Source: a virus
Virus record (IMG/VR): IMGVR_UViG_3300016482_000025
Location: 1-64,000 of that record
Length of the DNA: 64,000 nucleotides
Direction: 5' to 3' (one strand)
The translations under genes and the position numbers were made by a program. The notes beneath the pieces were generated by a model that was not told the DNA's origin, did not search any database, and saw only the letters and a list, made by a program, of their open reading frames with translations. This document shows, one piece after another, positions 12,083-46,854 of the stretch; position 1 is the stretch's first letter, and every line of letters starts with the position of its first letter.

Positions 12083-13147
12083 ATGAGTAGATTAACTAAA
12101 GAAGATTGCATTGATGAATTACAGCGTGTCATGCTGGAATATCCAGATAAAACCATGACACGCAATCTTTTCAGAGAACATGCTGAAATTAGAGAATCAG
12201 ATTGGCTTAAGTTATTCGGGACATTTGAAGAATTTAAACGTCAGGCTGGTATTAATCCTTCGCGTCTAACAAAACAAATTGATAATCATGTAGCAAAACA
12301 TTCGTCAATTGATAATCTACGTTTGTTCAATAAACAAAAAATTGGTTATGAAGATAAGTATTTAAAACCAAGTGGTAGTAGATATCAAACAATCATTCAT
12401 GCAACAGATATTCATGATAGAAATTGTGATCCGTTTTGGGTTGAAGTGTTTCTTGATACATTGAATAGAGTTAAACCGGAGAAAATTATTCTTGGTGGTG
12501 ATCTATTTGACCTTCCAGAGTTTGGTAAATATTCAATTGATCCTAGAGAATGGGACGTTGTAGGAAGAATTAAATGGGTTCATGATTTTCTTCAAGATAT
12601 CAGAGCAGAAAGCCCAAATTCTGAATTAATCCTTGTTGAAGGTAATCACGAATATCGTCTTCTACGTCATTTATCAGAATCCTCTCAATCAATGAGAGTT
12701 ATTCTTTCAGATTTACATGGCTTTGATGTAGCAAAACTACTCGGCTTGGATGACTATGAAGTGAATTATATTTCAAGAACCAATCTGGCAACATTCACGC
12801 AACGTGATATTAAAGAAGAATTAAATAGAAATTATTACATTGCATATGATTGTTACCTAGCACATCACTTCCCTGCCGGTGAGAAGATGGGCCTTCCAGG
12901 CGCCCATGGACACCATCACAGGCACAAGGTATCACAGCACTACAGCCCGGTATTTGGCGCCTATGAGTGGCACCAGCTAGGAGCAGGACATAGGCGTATG
13001 GCGTCCTATTGTGCCGGTGAGCAATGGGGTATGGGCTTTTTGATAGCACATATTGATACAGTTAAGAAACATGTTGCCCATGAGTATGTTCAAATTAGAG
13101 ACGATTTTGCAATCGTAGGAGGAAAATTCTATGAGCGTAAAAGCTAG
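12083..13147 (+). CDS. calcineurin-like metallophosphoesterase
   Basis: ATDIHD, GGDLFD, EGNHEY and His-rich GHHHRH motifs in the order expected for the metallophosphatase fold. Confidence 0.6.
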   Translation: MSRLTKEDCIDELQRVMLEYPDKTMTRNLFREHAEIRESDWLKLFGTFEEFKRQAGINPSRLTKQIDNHVAKHSSIDNLRLFNKQKIGYEDKYLKPSGSRYQTIIHATDIHDRNCDPFWVEVFLDTLNRVKPEKIILGGDLFDLPEFGKYSIDPREWDVVGRIKWVHDFLQDIRAESPNSELILVEGNHEYRLLRHLSESSQSMRVILSDLHGFDVAKLLGLDDYEVNYISRTNLATFTQRDIKEELNRNYYIAYDCYLAHHFPAGEKMGLPGAHGHHHRHKVSQHYSPVFGAYEWHQLGAGHRRMASYCAGEQWGMGFLIAHIDTVKKHVAHEYVQIRDDFAIVGGKFYERKS

Positions 13148-13643: not shown

Positions 13644-14045
13644 ATGAACAGTCTTTCTTGGAGCATCTATGTTATTCAAATTTTGGGCAGCCTGGATATC
13701 TTTCTTTCTTGGCTTGCTGGATTTTTGTTTTTTACTGGTGGTGTAGCATTTGTAATTCGAATTGTTACAGCCGACGCAAAAGACGCCGATGCACAACAAA
13801 TTCATGCTAAGATGATGCGCTATGTTAAATGGGCAATTTCTTGTGGTTTTGTTGTAGCATTTATAAACGTTGTTGTTCCTGATAGGAATACCATGTTACT
13901 AATTGCCGCTTCCCAAATCGGTGAGCGCGTGGTATCATCAGAAGCAGTCCAGAATGTTGTTGATCCTTCTGTTGATCTTCTAAAGACTTGGATTGAAGAA
14001 CAGACTCGTTCTCTGCGTCGTGGTAGTGAAGGGAATATGCGATGA
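13644..14045 (+). CDS. membrane protein
   Basis: ATG 13644 after GAGG; hydrophobic segments; downstream of promoter 13578-13605. Confidence 0.5.
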   Translation: MNSLSWSIYVIQILGSLDIFLSWLAGFLFFTGGVAFVIRIVTADAKDADAQQIHAKMMRYVKWAISCGFVVAFINVVVPDRNTMLLIAASQIGERVVSSEAVQNVVDPSVDLLKTWIEEQTRSLRRGSEGNMR

Positions 14046-14923
14046 TTATTCATGATCTAGTAAAAGAAAAACTAATCTCCACCCCAAAGTGGTTGCCTGA
14101 TAATACCCATTACCTTACAGTGATGGGTTCCGAGGCTTATGGTGTGTCCAATCGTGGTAGTGATATTGACGTTTATGGTTTCTGTATTCCTCCCAAGAAT
14201 GTTGTGTTTCCTCATACCGCTGGTGTAATTAAGGGTTTTGGTGATCAGGGAGAAATCTTTGATCAATGGCAGCAACATCATATCAAGCGCAATGACAAGG
14301 AATTTGACTTTCAAATTTTCTCAATTGTAAAGTATTTTCAGCTTTGCATGGATAATAATCCTAATGCACTGGATTCTATTTTTACTTATAGAACGTGTGT
14401 AATTCATTCTACTCCAATTGCAGAGCATATGAGGGAAAACCGCCGTCTGTTTCTACATAAGGGAGCTTACCACAAGTTTAGGGGATATGCTTATTCTCAA
14501 TTGAGCAAGATCAAGAATAAGACGAATAGCTCTAATCCTAAGCGTGCTGCTGATATTGTTGAAAATGGGTATGATACCAAATTCGCTTATCATGTCGTGC
14601 GTTTGGCTTTACAGGCACAGCAAATCCTGCTAGCATGTGACATGGATATTATGGCTAACAGGGAAGTCTTGAAGTCTATTCGTGCTGGTGAGTGGACTCT
14701 TGAACGTCTTACATCTTGGTTTGATGAACAGGAAAAGGTTCTAGAAAGTCTATATGCATCTTCTACGTTGCGTCATGTTCCTGATGAAGCCGCTATCAAG
14801 CGTGTTCTGATGGAATGCCTTGAAATGCACTATGGTTCTCTTGATAGTATTATTTCCAAGAATTCAGAAGAAAATAATCTTCTTATGGATTTGCAACATC
14901 TTGTTATGAAATATAGGAGTTAA
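14042..14923 (+). CDS. Pol-beta-superfamily nucleotidyltransferase (RNA-repair-associated RlaP-like type)
   Basis: GSEAYGVSNRGSDIDVYGF matches the GS-x-YG...SD-x-D nucleotidyltransferase signature. Confidence 0.5.
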   Translation: MIIHDLVKEKLISTPKWLPDNTHYLTVMGSEAYGVSNRGSDIDVYGFCIPPKNVVFPHTAGVIKGFGDQGEIFDQWQQHHIKRNDKEFDFQIFSIVKYFQLCMDNNPNALDSIFTYRTCVIHSTPIAEHMRENRRLFLHKGAYHKFRGYAYSQLSKIKNKTNSSNPKRAADIVENGYDTKFAYHVVRLALQAQQILLACDMDIMANREVLKSIRAGEWTLERLTSWFDEQEKVLESLYASSTLRHVPDEAAIKRVLMECLEMHYGSLDSIISKNSEENNLLMDLQHLVMKYRS

Positions 14924-16887: not shown

Positions 16888-17236
16888 GGGACATGTTATT
16901 AACGCAAAGATCGGTTACACTACTCTTGGTGTGGAAGATCATGGTATCATGACTTTCATGATTGGTATGGAATGGGATGGTTCTGGTCAAGGTATGGGTG
17001 GTTATGCTCTTGATTCTTGGAGTAAGGAACAAGACAAACGTGTTGGACATGCTGACTCTATCATGATGATTCGTGATATCATTGAGACTGTCGGTGTTGA
17101 TTCTTGGGAAAAGCTTAAGGGACAATATGTAAGGATTGTTCGTGAGTCTGATTCTTGGAGTGCACGAATCATTGGCATTGGACACATTGTTGAAGATAAG
17201 TGGTGCTTCCTTTCTGATTATTTTAAGAAGGATTAA
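16880..17236 (+). CDS. hypothetical protein
   Basis: Start moved to ATG 16880 (MNKGHVI). Confidence 0.45.
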   Translation: MNKGHVINAKIGYTTLGVEDHGIMTFMIGMEWDGSGQGMGGYALDSWSKEQDKRVGHADSIMMIRDIIETVGVDSWEKLKGQYVRIVRESDSWSARIIGIGHIVEDKWCFLSDYFKKD

Positions 17237-17240
17237 TAAA

Positions 17241-17480
17241 ATGAAGGTTTCTGAGCTTATTGAAATTCTTAAGTCTTGCAATCCTGATGATGTTGTGGTA
17301 ATGTCTAAGGATGGTGAGGGAAACCATTATTCTCGTCTTCACAGCGCAGAAATGTATTATCGTTTCAATGACGGTGAAATTGGTTTACGTGAGCTATCTG
17401 AGCTAGATCGTAGTCATGGTTATTCTGATGAAGATATTATGGAAGATGGAGTTGATTGCGTGGTTCTTTGGCCTCGCTAA
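17241..17480 (+). CDS. hypothetical protein
   Basis: Start moved to ATG 17241 (MKVSELI). Confidence 0.45.
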   Translation: MKVSELIEILKSCNPDDVVVMSKDGEGNHYSRLHSAEMYYRFNDGEIGLRELSELDRSHGYSDEDIMEDGVDCVVLWPR

Positions 17481-17495
17481 TTAAAGGAAAATAAA

Positions 17496-17891
17496 ATGTT
17501 CTATTGTTACGATTATGTGAATATTTCAGAATTGGTTGGTAAGACACTTACCGCCATTGAAACCGATGATTATGAATTCATTCTGTTCAAGTGTGAAGAT
17601 GGTTCAGAATATAAGATGTTTCATTCTCAAGATTGTTGTGAGTCAGTAACAATTGAAGATATTATTGGTGAATTTGATGATCTAATTGGCAATCCAATTC
17701 TGATTGCCGAGGAACGTTATGGTGAGCCACCAGAGCGGGTTCCAGATGAAAATGGATATGTTTACACTCCCGAAAGTGAAACATGGACGTTTTATGAGTT
17801 GGCAACCGTGAAAGGTTCTGTTACTATTCGCTGGTATGGCACTTCTAATGGATATTATTCCGAAGAAGTTAATTTCGCAAAGGTGGCATAA
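17496..17891 (+). CDS. hypothetical protein
   Basis: 131-aa ORF. Confidence 0.5.
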   Translation: MFYCYDYVNISELVGKTLTAIETDDYEFILFKCEDGSEYKMFHSQDCCESVTIEDIIGEFDDLIGNPILIAEERYGEPPERVPDENGYVYTPESETWTFYELATVKGSVTIRWYGTSNGYYSEEVNFAKVA

Positions 17892-18086
17892 GTGGATGAA
17901 ATTAATTTATCCTTACGATTGAAGGGTGATAGCTTAATTTTAAAACTTGGTGAAACAAGTAAAGAATTAATTGTTAAAAATGATTTTACAGATGAAGTAA
18001 CACAATTGGCAAAACTTCTTCTAGAACGCCGCAATGAAATTCTTGACAGGCGCCGTAGGGAAATGCTAAAAGAGTTTAAGAAGTGA
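17892..18086 (+). CDS. hypothetical protein
   Basis: 64-aa ORF with a GTG start. Confidence 0.35.
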   Translation: MDEINLSLRLKGDSLILKLGETSKELIVKNDFTDEVTQLAKLLLERRNEILDRRRREMLKEFKK

Positions 18087-18090
18087 GGAT

Positions 18091-18492
18091 ATGAATATGG
18101 ACCGAAAGCTTGCATCTATTCGTGTGATTGACGCCATTGATCCTATTCCGGGTGCCGATGCAATTGATGTTGCTACTATCGGTGGTTGGAAGGTTGTGGT
18201 CAAGAAGGGTGAATTCAATCCAGGCGACATGTGTGTATATTTTGAGATTGATTCTTGGATTCCCAAGGACGTTGCACCTTTTCTTTTCAAGGGTCGTGCT
18301 TATAATGGTGTCGAAGGTGAGCGTCTTCGCACGGTGAAGCTTAAGGGTGTTACATCACAAGGATTACTTTTACCATTATCAGTTTTAGGTGAAATTGTTG
18401 AAATCAAAGGAAAGAAATATATAAATATTCCTGATAGTAAATCTACGGGAATAGAAGATGATAATTTACAAAATACAGAACAAAATAACTAA
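18091..18492 (+). CDS. RNA ligase (DRB0094-like family), N-terminal fragment of a split gene
   Basis: KLASIRVIDAIDPIPGADAIDVATIGGWKVVVKKGEFNPGDMCVYFEIDSWIP...LKGVTSQGLLLPLS is the N-terminal module of this ligase family; the frame then runs into low-GC homing-endonuclease DNA and stops. Confidence 0.65.
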   Translation: MNMDRKLASIRVIDAIDPIPGADAIDVATIGGWKVVVKKGEFNPGDMCVYFEIDSWIPKDVAPFLFKGRAYNGVEGERLRTVKLKGVTSQGLLLPLSVLGEIVEIKGKKYINIPDSKSTGIEDDNLQNTEQNN

Positions 18493-19165
18493 TAAAATTT
18501 ATATAGGAAAGACTTCTAAATCATTAGAAATTAGATGGAAAAATCATTTAAAATGCGTAAATAAAAAAATCAATAGATGTTTATATGATTCAATAAACAA
18601 ATATGGTATTAATAATTTTATTATAGAAGAATTGTGTAAAGCAACAAAAGAAAATATTAATGATTTAGAAAAATTTTATATTAATGAATATAATAGTTTA
18701 TATCCTAATGGTTATAATATGACAAATGGTGGTGATGGTGGATATACACTAGAAAAATGGTCTAAAGAAGATAGAGAAAAATTATATAAAAAACAAGGCG
18801 AAAAAAGAAAAGGTAAAAGATCATCAGAATGGAGACAAGCAATTTCTTTAGGTTCTATAGAAAGAGAAAAAAATAAAACTATAGAACAAAAGAAAATAAT
18901 TGCTAATAAAATAAGTAAAACTTTAAAAGAAAAAAATATTAAACCACCGTTAAAAATTATGCTTGGTGAAGATAACCCAAATTATAATGATATACCTTTA
19001 GATTCTATTTTAAATATGATAAAAAATAATAAAAATTTAAAAGAAATAGCAAATTATTATTCAGTATCTAGAATAACTATTTCTAATAAACTCAAACCTA
19101 GTGAAAAAACATTTACACAATGGAGAAAATACTATGGCCTTATTGGAAATTATAGAAGGTCTTGA
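18458..19165 (+). CDS. GIY-YIG homing endonuclease inserted in the RNA ligase gene
   Basis: IYKIQNKITNKIYIGKT...YNMTNGGDGG (GIY-YIG core); Lys-rich NUMOD-like C-terminus; markedly lower GC than flanks; TATAAATA at 18420-18427. Confidence 0.8.
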   Translation: MIIYKIQNKITNKIYIGKTSKSLEIRWKNHLKCVNKKINRCLYDSINKYGINNFIIEELCKATKENINDLEKFYINEYNSLYPNGYNMTNGGDGGYTLEKWSKEDREKLYKKQGEKRKGKRSSEWRQAISLGSIEREKNKTIEQKKIIANKISKTLKEKNIKPPLKIMLGEDNPNYNDIPLDSILNMIKNNKNLKEIANYYSVSRITISNKLKPSEKTFTQWRKYYGLIGNYRRS

Positions 19166-19886
19166 TCTTACTGAAATGCTTGGTATTCAGAAGTATGAGA
19201 AGCCTCTACCGGGTTCTCTTGCTGGTAAGGTTCGCGGTAATTTTCCGTCTTTCATTCGCAAGACGGATCAGGAGCGCATTCAGAATCTAAAGAAGGAGCT
19301 TGGTTTTTGGGTATTTGGTGGCATTCGTTGGGAAGTCACTGAGAAGCTTGACGGGTCTTCCATGACTGTGTATCATCGTTCTTATACACAAGAAAGCGGT
19401 GTTGTTATTGATGTTGGGGTTTGTTCTCGCAATTTCGATCTTGCTCCACCGGAGTCAGAATTCTATCGTGAGAATGCTTTCTGGCAAGTAGAACGTAAGC
19501 TTGATATTGTCACTAATCTAATCAAGTATGGCATGAACATTGCTCTACAGGGTGAGCTTGTTGGTCCTGGCGTGCAGGGTAACAAGTATGGTCTAACCGA
19601 ACTTGATTTTTATGTCTTTGACATTTGGGATATTGACAAACAGTGTTATGTGTCACGTTCTGACCGTTACCATATCGTTGATCTTTTGGGCTTGAAGATG
19701 GTTCCAGTTATCAACACTGGTCTTGTTATTGATGAAGATTTTGCACACGGAATTATTAATTATGCAGATGGACAATCTATGATTGGCAATAAGTCTGCGC
19801 GTGAGGGATTGGTGTTCAAGTCTTCTTGTGGTCAATATTCTTTCAAGGCTATTTCCAACAAGTGGCTTCTTAAGAATGAGGATTAA
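19134..19886 (+). CDS. RNA ligase (DRB0094-like family), C-terminal catalytic fragment
   Basis: Own GGAG plus ATG 19134 lie inside the 3' end of the endonuclease ORF; LGIQKYEKPLP...FPSFIRKTDQERIQN...TEKLDGSS (KxDG nucleotidyl-transfer motif). Confidence 0.7.
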   Translation: MALLEIIEGLDLTEMLGIQKYEKPLPGSLAGKVRGNFPSFIRKTDQERIQNLKKELGFWVFGGIRWEVTEKLDGSSMTVYHRSYTQESGVVIDVGVCSRNFDLAPPESEFYRENAFWQVERKLDIVTNLIKYGMNIALQGELVGPGVQGNKYGLTELDFYVFDIWDIDKQCYVSRSDRYHIVDLLGLKMVPVINTGLVIDEDFAHGIINYADGQSMIGNKSAREGLVFKSSCGQYSFKAISNKWLLKNED

Positions 19887-19890
19887 TTAA

Positions 19891-20064
19891 ATGATTTGTG
19901 TTTTTTGTCACAAAGGTTTAAAGGACGGTTACACCCTTCATCGTATTAATGAGAAGGGTGTGCCTGGAATTTGGGCTTGTTGGGAACATAGATCACTTTC
20001 TGATAAACATTTTGATCCTGATTTAGATATGATTGTAAAGGTAATCGAAAATGCAACCAATTAG
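19891..20064 (+). CDS. small Cys-containing protein (57 aa)
   Basis: MICVFCHKGL...WACWEH; below the ORF-track cutoff. Confidence 0.35.
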   Translation: MICVFCHKGLKDGYTLHRINEKGVPGIWACWEHRSLSDKHFDPDLDMIVKVIENATN

Positions 20065-20065
20065 A

Positions 20066-20389
20066 ATGGATTCAATTGATAATGCAGTTAGGTTTCTTCG
20101 CGAAGCCTCAAAATATTTTAATGGTCGTCCTACCAATGGTGAGGATAGAGCATATTGGGCAAACGTTTATAATGCTGAAAACTGTGAAGAGATTGCCAAG
20201 CTTCTAGAGAAAGATGTAAATGAATTGATTGAATGTCTCAAGTGGTATATTCAGGAAGATGAAACTAATGAGGGGGATACTCCGCTTCCTGATCATGGTG
20301 GTTACACTTGGAATGAAATTAACGATTACTGGATTGATGGTAAGAAGCGTGCTATTGCTGCACTTGCAAAGTTTGGGGAGGAAGTGTAA
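20066..20389 (+). CDS. hypothetical protein
   Basis: Start moved to ATG 20066 (MDSIDNAV). Confidence 0.45.
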   Translation: MDSIDNAVRFLREASKYFNGRPTNGEDRAYWANVYNAENCEEIAKLLEKDVNELIECLKWYIQEDETNEGDTPLPDHGGYTWNEINDYWIDGKKRAIAALAKFGEEV

Positions 20390-20562
20390 TGGGTGTTTTT
20401 ATTGGAATGATCACTTTTATTCTAGGTGTTCTTGTTATTATTTCTCCCGCTTTTCCACCAGAATCAATTTGTGATATCATGACTACAAATGAAGCTATTG
20501 GTGTTGGTATTGTTGGTGCTATCATGTGTATTTCGGGAATCTTCAACATTGTCAGAACGTAG
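20389..20562 (+). CDS. small membrane protein (57 aa)
   Basis: TAATG overlap with the upstream gene; two hydrophobic segments. Confidence 0.4.
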   Translation: MGVFIGMITFILGVLVIISPAFPPESICDIMTTNEAIGVGIVGAIMCISGIFNIVRT

Positions 20563-20565
20563 ATA

Positions 20566-21222
20566 TCATAAAGATGGAACATTACCGGTTACATTTTTAC
20601 ATTTATCAAAATGATAACGTCGCATGTTTGTTCCACTACCAATTTTATTACAATGAGGACATTGTAAATTTTTAAATTTGTTTTTTAAACCTAAACTAAT
20701 ATTTTTACAATGTTCATCTGTTTTTTTATGAATTTTTATTGATTGACTTATTTTCATTTTTGTTTGCTCGGTGTGTTTTTTTCCAAACATAAAATGTTTC
20801 TCACCATAGTATTTTTTTATACTCTCAGAAATCTTTTGCTTTACTTCCTCTCTTTTTGATGGGTTTAATTCACCATATAAATCTTTTCTTTTTTTAGCTG
20901 ATTCGCTCATTTTTATTTTTGTTTCTTCTGTAATGTTATAAACTCTACCACCCAAACCACCACCGGTTTCAGGAATTAAATTCAAATATTCTTCTGATTC
21001 TACAATATTATTGATTTTAGAAAAATTTCTAGCAAAAATACATAAATCTTTTTTATTTTCTGATTCAAAAATTATATGAGTTGTAATATCATTACCATAT
21101 TTTTGTAAATGTTCTTTCCATATTTTTCCAGAACCTTTGTAATTAAATGGATTATTTTTAGTTATTCCAACATATTTTTTGTTTGTTAAGTTGTGAATTT
21201 TTAAATATAAGTAATAAACCAT
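20566..21222 (-). CDS. GIY-YIG homing endonuclease (Seg-like)
   Basis: VYYLYLKIHNLTNKKYVGIT...YKGSG, NUMOD3-like GKKHTEQTKMKIS, C-terminal CPHCNKIGSGTNMRRYHFDKC zinc finger; low GC; opposite strand to its neighbours. Confidence 0.8.
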   Translation of the reverse strand: MVYYLYLKIHNLTNKKYVGITKNNPFNYKGSGKIWKEHLQKYGNDITTHIIFESENKKDLCIFARNFSKINNIVESEEYLNLIPETGGGLGGRVYNITEETKIKMSESAKKRKDLYGELNPSKREEVKQKISESIKKYYGEKHFMFGKKHTEQTKMKISQSIKIHKKTDEHCKNISLGLKNKFKNLQCPHCNKIGSGTNMRRYHFDKCKNVTGNVPSL

Positions 21223-21275
21223 TTTTACCTCTAATTTAGCTGGATATATAATTTATATATAAAAAGGATTTTTTT

Positions 21276-21683
21276 ATGATAGAAAGACGTTACCATGTGG
21301 ACGGTAGCATTCCAAACAACGCTGTATGGGTCTTCGGGTCTAACCTTGCTGGTCGTCATGGAGCGGGAGCCGCCAAGGTCGCTGCAAACCGCTTTGGCGC
21401 CCGCTATGGTAAGGGTTATGGGTTCGCTGGTCAAAGCTTCGCTATTCCTACCAAGGATGAAAACTTGAAGGTTCTTCCTCTATATGCTATCATTGATCAT
21501 ATTGAAGGATTTGTAAGAGCCACACATCATCCTTTCAATTCAGAAGTAAACTGGTTTGTTACTCGCGTTGGGTGTGGTCTTGCTGGTTATAAAGATGAAC
21601 AAATAGCACCATATTTTAGAGACGCTATTAATTGTTCATTTGCAGAAGAATGGCGTCCTTATTTGGAGAATGAAAATGAATAA
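21276..21683 (+). CDS. conserved phage protein, possibly macro-like (unverified)
   Basis: VWVFGSNLAGRHGAGAAKVAANRFGARYGKGYGFAGQSFAIPTKD; I associate this pattern with a macro-like family, from memory only. Confidence 0.3.
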   Translation: MIERRYHVDGSIPNNAVWVFGSNLAGRHGAGAAKVAANRFGARYGKGYGFAGQSFAIPTKDENLKVLPLYAIIDHIEGFVRATHHPFNSEVNWFVTRVGCGLAGYKDEQIAPYFRDAINCSFAEEWRPYLENENE

Positions 21684-45669: not shown

Positions 45670-46854
45670 ATGAACTACGAATTTCCTCACATCACGCATA
45701 TTGATCAGGTTCGTGCGGCCATTGCTGGCCGTAAGGAATTCATTGAGGCAGAGCGCGATGACTACATTGTTTTCAATTACATTGTGAACATGGGTGATAC
45801 CTTTCCAGAAATTGAGACTGTTGACCATGCTATTCTACGTGAGTGTCGCGGTCTTATTTTCGATAAGGATGGTAATGTTCTGTCGCGTCGTCTTCACAAG
45901 TTTTTCAATGTAAACGAAACTTCCGAAACTCGCCTGGAAAATGTTGATCTTTCCAAGCCTCATGTTATTCTTGAAAAGCTTGACGGTTCCATGATTACTC
46001 CAATTAAGATTGGGGATCATTACCGTTGGGGAACCAAGATGGGTATTACGGAAGTTGCAATGAATGCGGAAGCGTTTGTTGCAAAGCATCCTCAATATGA
46101 GAAGTTTGCTCGCGCCTGTTACTACTGTGGTCTTACTCCTATCTTTGAGTGGTGTTCTCGTAAGAACCAAATCGTAATTGATTATCCAGAGGATCGCCTT
46201 GTTCTAATTGCAATGCGAGTGATGGAATCTGGTGAATATGTCAATTATGAGCGTCTTTGTGAAAATGGAAAGTATTATGGAATTGAGGTTGTAAAGCAAT
46301 ATCCTGGCACTGTTTCTTCAATGGAACATCTTGTGCAGGAAACTCGTGACCTTAAGGATGCAGAGGGGTGGATCATTCGTTTTGATGACGGGCATATGCT
46401 TAAGATCAAGGCTGATGATTATGTCATGATGCATCGTGCCAAGGATATGATTCGTATTGAAAAGAACGTTCTTCTGGTTGTAGCAGAGGATAAAGCGGAT
46501 GATCTTCTGCCTATTCTGAATGAGGTTGACCGGAATGACTTAATTCAATACCGCAAGGCTGTTGATCAAAGCATTGCTGAAAAGGCTGATGTTGTTGCTC
46601 ATGGTCTTATACAGGGACGGGATATGGACCGTAAGACTTTTGCGGTAACTCTTGTTCCTAACTTTGATCAGTCTATTCATTCTATTATGTTCGCTCTTTA
46701 CGATCAGCGTCACTCTAACTTTGATGATCTTGTTCTAAAGGCACGTGAATTGATTGTAGAGAAGATTCGCAAGTCTTGTGGCACTATAGTTGGTGTTAAC
46801 AAGGTTCGTTGGATCATTGGTAATGTTCGTTGGAAGGATCAGAACGATGAATGA
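45670..46854 (+). CDS. rnlA: RNA ligase 1 (T4 RnlA-like tRNA ligase)
   Basis: ECRGLIFDKDGNVLSRRLHKFFNVNE, EKLDGSM (KxDGS) and EGWIIRFDDGHMLKIKADDY parallel the T4 RnlA blocks ECRGIMF, KEDGSL and EGYV..DGSHFKIKSDWY. Confidence 0.85.
   Translation: MNYEFPHITHIDQVRAAIAGRKEFIEAERDDYIVFNYIVNMGDTFPEIETVDHAILRECRGLIFDKDGNVLSRRLHKFFNVNETSETRLENVDLSKPHVILEKLDGSMITPIKIGDHYRWGTKMGITEVAMNAEAFVAKHPQYEKFARACYYCGLTPIFEWCSRKNQIVIDYPEDRLVLIAMRVMESGEYVNYERLCENGKYYGIEVVKQYPGTVSSMEHLVQETRDLKDAEGWIIRFDDGHMLKIKADDYVMMHRAKDMIRIEKNVLLVVAEDKADDLLPILNEVDRNDLIQYRKAVDQSIAEKADVVAHGLIQGRDMDRKTFAVTLVPNFDQSIHSIMFALYDQRHSNFDDLVLKARELIVEKIRKSCGTIVGVNKVRWIIGNVRWKDQNDE

What the first reader, a model, noticed from the sequence alone, without database searches (positions are those of the whole stretch)
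18091..19886. RNA ligase gene split into two independently translatable halves by a GIY-YIG homing endonuclease
The N-terminal module (to ..VTSQGLLLPLS) and the catalytic part (LGIQKYEKPLP..KTDQERIQN..EKLDGSS) of a DRB0094-type RNA ligase are separated by about 770 bp. That gap is almost entirely a low-GC GIY-YIG ORF (18458-19165). The downstream half has its own GGAG plus ATG (19134) embedded in the end of the endonuclease gene. There is no room for a group I intron core. The arrangement therefore resembles the endonuclease-split nrdA and gene 43 cases known from other T4-like phages, but in an RNA-repair enzyme.
Basis: partly seen in the sequence, partly recalled or inferred. Interest (0 to 1): 0.7.

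Follow-up and report, generated by a model that had tools for sequence, protein, structure and literature searches.

The report
Homing-endonuclease-split phage RNA ligase gene
A T4-like phage carries an RNA-repair ligase gene cut into two separately translated halves by a mobile endonuclease cassette that brings its own stop, promoter and start signals; this is a new and widespread example of a known "genes-in-pieces" phenomenon.

Summary
Window 18097-18492 encodes the N-terminal OB module and 19134-19886 the nucleotidyltransferase part of an Rnl5 (DraRnl/NgrRnl-type) RNA ligase. A 235-aa GIY-YIG ORF (18458-19165) lies between them, and the three ORFs use three different frames. No intron or intein is detectable.

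New findings:
- The AT-rich cassette 18343-19159 is 98% identical to one in a second phage whose ligase exons are only 62-72% identical, so it has moved recently.
- The cassette carries the stop codon of the N half, a TATAAATA late-promoter motif with a hairpin that covers the endonuclease ribosome-binding site, and the GGAG+ATG of the C half.
- The cut falls in a surface loop of a small beta-meander in the linker.
- The same architecture, at the same site and with homologous endonucleases, occurs in at least 8 sequenced metagenomic loci. About 93 protein clusters are stand-alone N halves, and these keep the ATP-contacting Arg and Asp.
- None was found among deposited phage genomes or in the searched literature.

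Best reading: a mobile endonuclease cassette creates a genes-in-pieces ligase whose halves reassemble non-covalently, as in Aeh1 nrdA/mobE. Reassembly and activity are inferred, not shown. It is a new member of a known kind.

The parts
18097..18492 (+). N half of the Rnl5 RNA ligase (131 aa from the ATG at 18097; an alternative ATG is at 18091). It comprises the OB domain, linker strands 1-2 (EIVEI, KKYINI) and a 20-aa cassette-encoded tail (PDSKSTGIEDDNLQNTEQNN) ending in TAA.
   Evidence: PF21189 E 3.5e-30. Aligns to NgrRnl residues 5-~107. Arg3 and Asp52 (equivalent to NgrRnl Arg4 and Asp53) are conserved.
18343..19159 (+). Mobile cassette. It holds AT-rich replacement codons for ..KGVTSQGLLLPLSVLGEIVEIKGKKYIN, the N-half tail and stop, the endonuclease gene, and the SD, ATG and first 8-9 codons (MALLEIIEG) of the C half.
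   Evidence: 800/817 nt identical to L001, against 62-63% (5' exon) and 70-72% (3' exon) outside it. GC is 17-24% against about 45% in the exons. The intact relative L023 has a 114-nt native linker at this position.
18420..18427 (+). TATAAATA, a putative T4-type late promoter for the endonuclease (and the C half), lying inside the KYIN codons of the N-half tail.
   Evidence: It is one of only 6 copies in the 64-kb window. Another copy lies 28 nt upstream of the major capsid gene start. The same motif lies 30-33 nt upstream of the endonuclease ATG in L001, L024, L003, L059 and L061. Function is inferred.
18426..18453 (+). RNA hairpin (UAUUCCUG...CGGGAAUA) ending 4 nt before the endonuclease ATG and covering its purine-rich ribosome-binding region. 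A late transcript would start inside its 5' arm.
   Evidence: dG -10.5 kcal/mol, z -3.05. Hairpins at the same position with different stem sequences occur in L024, L003 and L059. The arrangement is known for I-TevI, segB and mobE (PMC2988022).
18458..19165 (+). Free-standing GIY-YIG homing endonuclease gene (235 aa). It overlaps the N-half end by 35 nt and the C-half start by 32 nt.
   Evidence: PF01541 E 8e-9. Homologues with 39-96% aa identity (alignments) lie at the same ligase site in 8 other loci. dN/dS is 0.1-0.5.
19121..19124 (+). GGAG Shine-Dalgarno sequence for the C half, formed by the Trp-Arg codons (TGG AGA) of the endonuclease.
   Evidence: It lies 8 nt upstream of the ATG at 19134. 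TGGAGA followed by an ATG is conserved in 7 of 9 split loci.
19134..19886 (+). C half of the Rnl5 RNA ligase (250 aa). It comprises linker strand 3 (ALLE), the Lys121-equivalent segment (LGIQKYE) and the nucleotidyltransferase domain with motifs I-V (EKLDGSS ... EGLVFK ... SFKAISNK).
   Evidence: PF09414 E 1.9e-28. Aligns to NgrRnl ~108-339. The motifs are conserved in all split lineages.

Best explanation
A free-standing GIY-YIG homing endonuclease cassette (window ~18343-19159) has inserted by homing, through gene conversion, into the inter-domain linker of an Rnl5 nick-sealing RNA ligase gene of a T4-like phage. It replaced about 114 nt of native linker. The cassette supplies everything needed to turn one gene into three cistrons. 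It supplies AT-rich codons for the first two linker beta-strands plus a short tail and stop codon for the N half. It supplies its own late-promoter motif and a hairpin that hides the endonuclease ribosome-binding site in read-through transcripts. At its 3' end, in another frame, it supplies a GGAG and ATG plus the third linker strand for the C half. There is no RNA or protein splicing. The OB-domain half and the nucleotidyltransferase half are made as separate polypeptides and most likely reassemble non-covalently through the domain interface and the three-stranded linker meander. That would rebuild the composite adenylylation site, with Arg and Asp from the N half and Lys plus the NTase residues from the C half. 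Shown here: the anatomy, the absence of an intron or intein, the mobility of the cassette, the recurrence of the arrangement, and the conservation of both halves. Inferred: the timing of expression, cleavage of intact alleles by the endonuclease, and assembly and activity of the two-piece ligase.
For: Anatomy and domain assignment.

No intron: Rfam gives no group I/II hit at E<=10 in 17500-21500 and nothing at gathering score in 8 other split loci. Only about 26 nt of the insert lies outside the endonuclease ORF.

No intein: Pfam finds only PF21189 and PF09414 on the halves. The tail is 20 aa and the head 7 aa.

Mobility:
- The cassette is 97.9% identical to L001 while the exons are 62-72% identical.
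- A syntenic relative, L023, has an intact gene.
- Endonuclease and ligase similarities disagree in both directions. For example, L024/L062 have C cores 71% identical but endonucleases 43% identical.

Recurrence at the same site:
- L001/2, L003, L004, L024, L026, L059/60, L061 and L062.
- 93 clusters (at 90% identity) of stand-alone N halves with cassette-type tails.

Selection:
- dN/dS is 0.12-0.13 for C halves and 0.2-0.3 for N halves. It is 0.11 for the endonuclease between L024 and L003, at dS ~1.
- Arg3, Asp52 and Glu50 are >=95% conserved across stand-alone N halves whose median pairwise identity is 57%. [quoted passage not shown]

Structure:
- AlphaFold2 of the intact homologue P0003 (pLDDT 90.6) shows a three-strand meander in the linker.
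- In a model of the joined window halves (pLDDT 90.6) the break lies in a low-confidence loop (pLDDT 54-63) between strands 106-111 and 133-136.

Translation signals: GGAG+ATG is conserved in 7 of 9 loci.

Late promoter plus hairpin.

Precedent for active HEG-split enzymes: PMC3045599, PMC2988022.
Against: - No experiment shows that either polypeptide is made or that the two associate.
- The joined-chain AlphaFold model cannot test association.
- The cassette in this window arrived recently (98% identity to L001), so the intact state of these particular halves says little about selection after the split.
- One related locus (L003) has a 26-nt deletion that frameshifts its N half, so decay does occur (or the assembly is faulty).
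- The phage also has an Rnl1/gp63-type ligase, which could make the Rnl5 enzyme dispensable.
- NgrRnl lacking residues 1-126 keeps only 4% nick-sealing activity (PMC4408790), so failure to assemble would cripple the enzyme.
- The count of TATAAATA in the window (6) is not above chance (6.8 expected). The motif overlaps conserved KYIN codons, so its conservation could be protein-driven.
- The hairpin is absent in L004, L026 and L061.
Confidence: 0.72

Rival explanations
1. The two ligase pieces are non-functional remnants. The endonuclease insertion killed a dispensable gene, and the fragments look intact only because the insertion is recent.
For: The cassette is 98% identical to the one in L001, so it is young. 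The L003 N half is frameshifted by a 26-nt deletion. The phage has a second RNA ligase of Rnl1 type. An N-less Rnl5 is only 4% active (PMC4408790).
Against: Ninety-three diverged clusters of stand-alone N halves (median 57% identity) keep the catalytic-site Arg and Asp at >=95%. All 8 other fully read split loci except L003 have open N and C halves with intact motifs. dN/dS is 0.12-0.3. The SD+ATG for the C half is conserved in 7 of 9 loci even though the endonuclease C-termini differ. Endonucleases at this site have diverged to 37-60% identity, which implies long residence in this gene family.
Confidence: 0.15
2. Only one piece matters. The C half works alone as a stand-alone nucleotidyltransferase, for example sealing pre-adenylylated nicks. 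It may be expressed late from the cassette promoter without the N half. The N half is then either a by-product or has a separate role.
For: NgrRnl and DraRnl lacking the N domain are 2-5 fold better at sealing pre-adenylylated nicks (PMC4408790). The TATAAATA at 18420 would give late transcripts that contain the endonuclease and the C half but not the N half.
Against: Stand-alone N halves are as well conserved as those of intact genes, including the ATP-contacting residues. N and C halves are always adjacent and co-oriented. The C half keeps the Lys121-equivalent segment, which belongs to the OB module and packs against it in the models.
Confidence: 0.08
3. The interruption is removed before the protein is finished, by a cryptic self-splicing intron, protein trans-splicing or ribosomal bypass. 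The result would be one contiguous ligase.
For: T4-like phages do use group I introns with GIY-YIG genes and a 50-nt translational bypass. The same ligase family is elsewhere broken by a split intein with an endonuclease between the parts (L063, P0121, P0371).
Against: There is no Rfam intron hit, even at E<=10. About 96% of the insert is endonuclease ORF. No Hint or intein domain is found, the tail is 20 aa and the head 7 aa, and there is no Cys/Ser/Thr nucleophile at the junction. The three reading frames differ and the gap is about 700 nt, far beyond known bypassing. The stop and start signals are conserved across lineages.
Confidence: 0.03

Closest known systems
Aeromonas phage Aeh1 nrdA-a / mobE / nrdA-b (Friedrich et al. 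2007; Crona et al. 2011, PMC3045599)
   Same: [quoted passage not shown] The host gene is split into two co-oriented cistrons with no intron or intein. The new C- and N-terminal tails derive from the insertion. A late promoter plus an RBS-sequestering hairpin controls the endonuclease (PMC2988022).
   Different: The host gene here is an RNA ligase, not ribonucleotide reductase. The endonuclease is GIY-YIG, not HNH. The cut lies in an inter-domain linker loop rather than a catalytic region. The Aeh1 case is a single, biochemically proven example. This one is unproven biochemically but is seen in many diverged lineages, with direct sequence evidence that the whole cassette moves.
Aeromonas phage 25 gene 43A / seg43(25) / 43B, and T4 gene 39 / mobA / gene 60 (PMC2988022)
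   Same: T4-family enzymes (DNA polymerase, topoisomerase) are split into two polypeptides at the site of a seg- or mob-type endonuclease gene. The fragments co-purify and are active.
   Different: For gene 43 it is unclear whether the endonuclease caused the split. T4 gene 60 additionally needs a 50-nt ribosomal bypass. Neither involves an RNA-repair enzyme.
Fractured genes with split inteins and a free-standing endonuclease (Dassa et al. 2009, PMC2677866)
   Same: The gene order is the same (N part, endonuclease, C part) in phage metagenomes. The downstream start codon overlaps the 3' end of the endonuclease. That paper's model has the invading element bringing the stop and start signals.
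   Different: In those loci the halves carry N- and C-intein parts and are rejoined by protein trans-splicing. No intein is present here. RNA ligase is not among their host genes. A true fractured-gene version of the Rnl5 ligase exists at another site (after KTDQER) in L063.
Rnl5 RNA ligases DraRnl (DRB0094) and NgrRnl (PDB 5COT; PMC4408790, PMC7261155)
   Same: The domain order is the same (N-terminal OB module, then NTase with motifs I-V and no C-terminal domain). The joined halves align over 335 residues at E 1e-72. Arg4, Asp53, Lys121 and Lys170 equivalents are conserved.
   Different: The characterised enzymes are single polypeptides. Here residues equivalent to about 1-107 and about 108-339 are on separate chains, and the linker carries an extra three-strand insert that NgrRnl lacks.

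Membership tests
Rnl5 RNA ligase (DraRnl/NgrRnl, TIGR02306) | Clade-specific N-terminal OB module | tested here: met
   PF21189 E 3.5e-30 on the N half. Aligns to NgrRnl from residue 5.
Rnl5 RNA ligase (DraRnl/NgrRnl, TIGR02306) | C-terminal nucleotidyltransferase domain with the motif I lysine (KxDG) and motifs Ia, III, IV, V, and no further C-terminal domain | tested here: met
   PF09414 E 1.9e-28. EKLDGSS, CSRN, QGEL, EGLVFK and SFKAISNK are present. The alignment runs to the last residue of NgrRnl.
Rnl5 RNA ligase (DraRnl/NgrRnl, TIGR02306) | Both modules on one polypeptide | tested here: not met
   Stop codon at 18490-18492. The C half is in another frame with its own SD+ATG.
Rnl5 RNA ligase (DraRnl/NgrRnl, TIGR02306) | ATP-dependent sealing of 3'-OH RNA / 5'-PO4 nicks through a lysyl-AMP intermediate | not testable with these tools
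   Needs purified N and C halves.
Free-standing GIY-YIG homing endonuclease (Seg / I-TevI type) | N-terminal GIY-YIG catalytic domain | tested here: met
   PF01541 E 8e-9. IYKI...KIYIGKT, Arg26, Glu71 and the NGYNMT motif are invariant among 5 homologues.
Free-standing GIY-YIG homing endonuclease (Seg / I-TevI type) | C-terminal DNA-binding module (NUMOD, HTH or zinc finger) | tested here: inconclusive
   No Pfam hit beyond residue 87. The C-terminal part is conserved among homologues but was not assigned.
Free-standing GIY-YIG homing endonuclease (Seg / I-TevI type) | Evidence of mobility: the same element with co-converted flanks in otherwise diverged alleles, and empty sites in relatives | tested here: met
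   98% against 62-72% identity. Intact allele in the syntenic locus L023. Endonuclease and ligase similarities are discordant.
Free-standing GIY-YIG homing endonuclease (Seg / I-TevI type) | Site-specific cleavage of the endonuclease-lacking allele | not testable with these tools
   Needs an in vitro cleavage or co-infection assay.
Endonuclease-generated genes-in-pieces (Aeh1 nrdA/mobE type) | The contiguous gene in relatives is interrupted here by a co-oriented endonuclease ORF, with a stop codon for the upstream part and SD+start for the downstream part | tested here: met
Endonuclease-generated genes-in-pieces (Aeh1 nrdA/mobE type) | No intron or intein that could restore continuity | tested here: met
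   Rfam negative. No intein domain found and the tails are too short.
Endonuclease-generated genes-in-pieces (Aeh1 nrdA/mobE type) | The two polypeptides assemble into an active enzyme | not testable with these tools
   Indirect support only: conservation of both halves and the loop position of the break.
Group I intron carrying a homing endonuclease gene (T4 td / I-TevI type) | Ribozyme core (P3-P9) flanking or enclosing the endonuclease ORF | tested here: not met
   No Intron_gpI match at E<=10 or in 8 related loci. About 26 nt of the insert is non-ORF, and that stretch codes for the N-half tail.
Fractured gene with split intein (Dassa et al. 2009) | N-intein fused to the upstream part and C-intein fused to the downstream part | tested here: not met
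   There is no PF14890 or Hint hit on either half. By contrast, P0328/L063 in the same ligase family does have such hits.

The most novel reading that the evidence does not exclude
The cassette is a self-contained, portable gene-splitting module. Besides the endonuclease it carries the stop codon, a late promoter, an SD/ATG and, crucially, its own versions of the linker beta-strands and tails (..EIVEIKGKKYIN.. / ..LLEIIEG..). These would act as a built-in protein-complementation device. The element could then invade any Rnl5 allele and leave a working two-piece enzyme, a protein-level substitute for splicing that travels with the mobile DNA. A further possibility is that the internal late promoter uncouples the C half from the N half late in infection, giving an N-less enzyme biased towards sealing pre-adenylylated ends.
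Probability: 0.3. Interest if true: 0.7.

Novelty: new member of a known kind. Interest (0 to 1): 0.55.

Why it matters
Only a few enzymes are known to survive being cut in two by a free-standing homing endonuclease: Aeh1 NrdA, T4 topoisomerase and phage 25 DNA polymerase. Each is essentially a single case. Here the same solution appears in an RNA-repair ligase, and in roughly a hundred diverged natural variants. A filled site, an empty site and a near-identical cassette in diverged alleles are all available for comparison. That makes several questions directly testable. How does a mobile element make its insertion harmless? Do the element-borne tails and strands drive reassembly? Where are the endonuclease's target and immunity determinants? 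It also offers a natural split point for engineering two-piece Rnl5 ligases. Finally, it warns annotators that ~130-aa 'RNA ligase (TIGR02306)' ORFs in phage metagenomes are halves of split genes, not truncations.

Tried and rejected
- **Group I/II intron:** the Rfam E-value scan of 17500-21500 gave only four chance-level hits to unrelated families. The gathering-score scan of 8 split loci gave nothing. Rejected.
- **Intein or split intein:** no domain hit, and the tails are too short. Rejected for this locus, though a real split-intein version of the same ligase exists elsewhere (L063).
- **Near-identical phages:** megablast of 17000-21500 against 50,697 phage records found only a 35-nt chance match.
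- **Endonuclease in deposited phages:** tblastn found nothing closer than about 36% identity.
- **Ligase in deposited phages:** 348 records matched, and all 60 listed were single-piece. The 8 records with <80% coverage were not inspected.
- **L059 middle ORF:** it looked like an endonuclease that had lost its GIY-YIG domain, which would have shown persistence of the split after endonuclease decay. It turned out to be a late-called start, and the full 249-aa GIY-YIG ORF is present.
- **Three-way global DNA alignment:** it mis-aligned the 5' exon with the endonuclease. It was replaced by per-exon alignments.
- **Sigma-70 promoter and terminator scan:** uninformative; the 25 promoter-like sites against 17 expected reflect AT-rich sequence, and there is no terminator between the halves.
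- **Split locus without an endonuclease:** none was found with DNA available. P0361 (a 162-aa N part followed directly by a 164-aa ligase ORF) has no DNA on record.
Full report
**1. What is in the sequence**

- ORF listing and the raw sequence show three overlapping, co-oriented ORFs in three different frames.
  - 18091/18097-18492: 133 or 131 aa.
  - 18458-19165: 235 aa.
  - 19134-19886: 250 aa from the ATG. A GTG at 19101 opens the frame, but it has no Shine-Dalgarno sequence.
- Pfam assigns them as follows.
  - The first is the PHA02142 OB-fold domain (PF21189, E 3.5e-30).
  - The second is the GIY-YIG catalytic domain (PF01541, E 8e-9).
  - The third is RNA_ligase (PF09414, E 1.9e-28).
- The two ligase parts joined in silico align end to end with Naegleria gruberi Rnl5 ligase (PDB 5COT, residues 5-339, E 1e-72). 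Metagenome homologues carry the name 'RNA ligase (TIGR02306 family)'. The DRB0094/Rnl5 assignment is therefore right.
- GC content falls from about 45% in the ligase parts to 17-24% in the insert.
- The host is a T4-superfamily phage.
  - It has a gp23-type major head protein (phrog_138, E 3e-169).
  - Its nearest deposited capsid is Stenotrophomonas phage DLP_6, at 73% identity.
  - It also has gp46/47-like nuclease subunits, an Alt-like ADP-ribosyltransferase and an Rnl1/gp63-like ligase.
- No closely related genome exists in the INPHARED collection.

**2. Not an intron, an intein or a bypass**

- An Rfam scan of 17500-21500 at E<=10 returned no intron family.
- Eight further loci with the same architecture returned nothing at gathering score.
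- Native ligase sequence runs to about ..GKKYIN (18431) and resumes at ..ALLEIIEG (19137).
  - The endonuclease ORF fills all but about 26 nt of what lies between.
  - Those 26 nt code for the tail of the N half.
- Neither half has a Hint or intein domain.
  - The non-native tail is 20 aa and the non-native head 7 aa.
  - No nucleophilic residue sits at the junction.
- As a contrast, the same ligase family is broken elsewhere (after KTDQER) by a real split intein with an ORF between the parts (P0121, P0328, P0371 and locus L063).

**3. The insert is a recently mobile cassette**

- The C half has a 70%-identical relative, P0041, which is also only 249 aa long.
- Its contig (L001/L002) has the same order: N half, GIY-YIG gene, C half.
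- DNA alignment gives the boundaries of the shared cassette.
  - Window 18343-19159 is 800/817 (97.9%) identical to L001.
  - The 5' exon is 62-63% identical.
  - The 3' exon is 70-72% identical.
- A syntenic relative, L023, carries an intact 364-aa ligase, P0003.
  - L001 tracks L023 up to ..GTGAAGTTGAAGGG and again from GAAGGCGATGA...
  - In between, L023 has 114 nt encoding QVSQGLLIPFSEISEIQKWNEDSWVYVGMSGTYMVNEG.
  - L001 has the 812-nt cassette at that position.
- The cassette therefore replaces the native linker. It brings AT-rich codons for ..SQGLLLPLSVLGEIVEIKGKKYIN, the tail and stop of the N half, the endonuclease gene, and the SD, ATG and first codons of the C half.

**4. The arrangement is widespread and always at the same site**

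- Scans with the endonuclease found more split ligases.
  - L003, L004/L025, L024 and L026 are split.
  - L005 has a related endonuclease sitting just upstream of an intact ligase.
- Look-ups of stand-alone N halves added L059/L060, L061 and L062.
- In all of them the N half ends shortly after a ..G(K/x)K(Y/F)IN.. strand.
- In all of them the C half begins with ..L(I/V)E(I/L)xEGxD(L/V)(T/S)E, with its start codon inside the 3' end of the endonuclease ORF.
- TGGAGA followed by an ATG is conserved in 7 of 9 loci.
- An exhaustive search of 1.84 billion representatives, and a profile search of the 5.8-billion-protein set, both returned many 115-140-aa PF21189-only proteins.
  - Of the best 120 clusters, 93 are stand-alone N halves with cassette-type tails.
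  - Those tails (..NLQNTEQNN, ..DIQDSKQE, ..SIQDNQ) are the out-of-frame reading of the conserved GIY-YIG N-terminus.
- Among 50,697 deposited phage genomes the ligase is common: 348 records matched, and all 60 listed were contiguous.
- This endonuclease family is absent from that collection, with a best match of about 36% identity.

**5. Horizontal movement and selection**

- Endonuclease and ligase similarities disagree in both directions.

| Pair | Endonuclease identity | Ligase core identity |
|---|---|---|
| window / L001 | 96% | 63% and 71% |
| L024 / L062 | 43% | 80% and 71% |
| L004 / L062 | 43% | 76% and 73% |

- This is what repeated homing and replacement at one site would produce.
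- The endonucleases are under purifying selection: dN/dS is 0.11 between L024 and L003 at dS ~1.
- C halves have dN/dS 0.12-0.13 within the L003/L004/L024 group. N halves have 0.2-0.3.
- The 93 stand-alone N halves have a median pairwise identity of 57%.
  - Across them Arg3, Glu50, Asp52, Trp31 and others are >=95% conserved.
  - Arg3 and Asp52 correspond to NgrRnl Arg4 and Asp53.
  - The Lys121 equivalent (LGIQKYE) sits on the C half.
- The step-1 active site is thus composite, and both contributions are kept.
- One exception was found. The N half of L003 carries a 26-nt deletion and is frameshifted.

**6. Where the cut falls in the protein**

- AlphaFold2 of the intact relative P0003 (53-sequence alignment, mean pLDDT 90.6) predicts a three-strand meander in the linker, at residues 102-106, 109-114 and 117-121. 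NgrRnl and L005 lack this insert.
- A model of the window's two halves joined head to tail (mean pLDDT 90.6) keeps strands 99-103 and 106-111 from the N half and 133-136 from the C half.
- In that model the cassette-specific tail (residues 112-132) forms a low-confidence loop, with pLDDT 54-63.
- The break is therefore in a surface turn, flanked by strands that could pair in trans.
- This model is a single chain and does not test association.
- Biochemistry of the family sets the stakes.
  - NgrRnl without residues 1-126 has 4% nick-sealing activity and crippled adenylylation.
  - The same truncation gives better sealing of pre-adenylylated nicks (PMC4408790).

**7. Regulation (inferred)**

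- TATAAATA, the T4 late-promoter motif, occurs only six times in the window.
  - One copy lies 28 nt upstream of the capsid gene start.
  - One copy, at 18420-18427, lies 30 nt upstream of the endonuclease ATG.
- The motif sits 30-33 nt upstream of the endonuclease start in L001, L024, L003, L059 and L061.
- Directly after it a hairpin (18426-18453, -10.5 kcal/mol, z -3.05) ends 4 nt before the ATG.
- L024, L003 and L059 have hairpins at the same place with different stem sequences.
- A late transcript would start inside the 5' arm and free the ribosome-binding site.
- This is the scheme documented for I-TevI, I-TevII, I-TevIII, segB and Aeh1 mobE (PMC2988022).
- Caveats:
  - The motif count is not above chance.
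  - The motif overlaps the conserved KYIN codons.
  - L004, L026 and L062 lack the motif.

**8. Comparison with what is known**

- The literature search found endonuclease-split genes only for three cases. These are Aeh1 nrdA (mobE), T4 topoisomerase 39/60 (mobA) and phage 25 gene 43 (seg43) (PMC2988022, PMC3045599).
- Split-intein 'fractured genes' are reported for gp41, IMPDH, DnaE, NrdA, NrdJ, DNA ligase and terminase (PMC2677866).
- No RNA ligase case turned up.
- Dassa et al. had already proposed that the invading element supplies the upstream stop and the downstream start. Crona et al. showed that insertion-derived tails are essential for the split NrdA.
- This locus therefore works like the Aeh1 case and is a new member of that kind. 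Its particular value is the large natural series and the clean filled-site, empty-site and cassette comparison.

**9. Verdict**

- The architecture and the mobility are shown.
- Non-covalent reassembly into an active ligase is the most likely outcome (about 0.7) but remains untested.
- Pseudogenisation of a dispensable gene is the main rival (about 0.15).
- Interest is moderate to good (0.55). It is a new host enzyme class and a rich comparative system for a known phenomenon, not a new mechanism.

Noticed in passing
L063 3001-5660 (ENA ERZ28614953, 297-kb contig); also proteins P0121, P0328, P0371: The same Rnl5 ligase family is broken at a different site (after KTDQER|C) in the 'fractured gene' manner. 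The order is OB+linker+N-intein ORF, a 338-aa ORF with no Pfam hit, then a C-intein+RNA_ligase ORF. RNA ligase is not among the host genes listed by Dassa et al. 2009.
   Followed up: partly
window 20566-21222 (- strand): A second free-standing GIY-YIG-like endonuclease gene with a NUMOD3 motif (218 aa, GC 18-33%), about 0.7 kb downstream of the ligase. A homologue lies at the same relative place in L001 (8105-8770). Seg-like ORFs on the opposite strand abut the ligase C half in L003 (3654-4376) and L024 (4402-5211). The neighbourhood is an endonuclease hot spot.
   Followed up: partly
L005 4001-5951 (IMGVR_UViG_3300033074_000216): A related GIY-YIG endonuclease (53% identical over the catalytic domain) sits immediately upstream of an intact Rnl5 ligase and overlaps its start by 32 nt. 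This ligase lacks the three-strand linker insert. It may be an alternative, or ancestral, intergenic position for the same endonuclease family.
   Followed up: partly
L003 1844-2225: The N half of this split ligase has a 26-nt deletion relative to L024 and L004 (..FLSKGQE|RLRT..). The deletion shifts the frame. It is either decay of the N half or an assembly error.
   Followed up: partly
protein P0361 (24+ contigs of 50-200 kb; no DNA available): A 162-aa ORF (OB domain through ..KTDSERVQNLWHKFLETISTR) is followed directly by a 164-aa RNA_ligase ORF, with no endonuclease between. It may be a frameshifted gene, a pseudogene or another kind of split in an abundant phage.
   Followed up: no
window 45670-46854, 14042-14923, 12083-13147: The phage also encodes a T4 Rnl1/gp63-like RNA ligase, a nucleotidyltransferase (phrog_388) and a metallophosphoesterase. 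It therefore has more than one RNA end-joining or healing activity.
   Followed up: no
window 18085-18099: The GAGGA Shine-Dalgarno sequence is 1 nt from the ATG at 18091 but 7 nt from the ATG at 18097. Homologues start M(S/D/E)RKLA.., so the N half probably starts at 18097.
   Followed up: yes
L001 10814-12532: A 572-aa gene in the related phage carries an intein with a LAGLIDADG-type endonuclease (Hom_end_hint, LAGLIDADG_3). This is further mobile-element load in this phage group.
   Followed up: no
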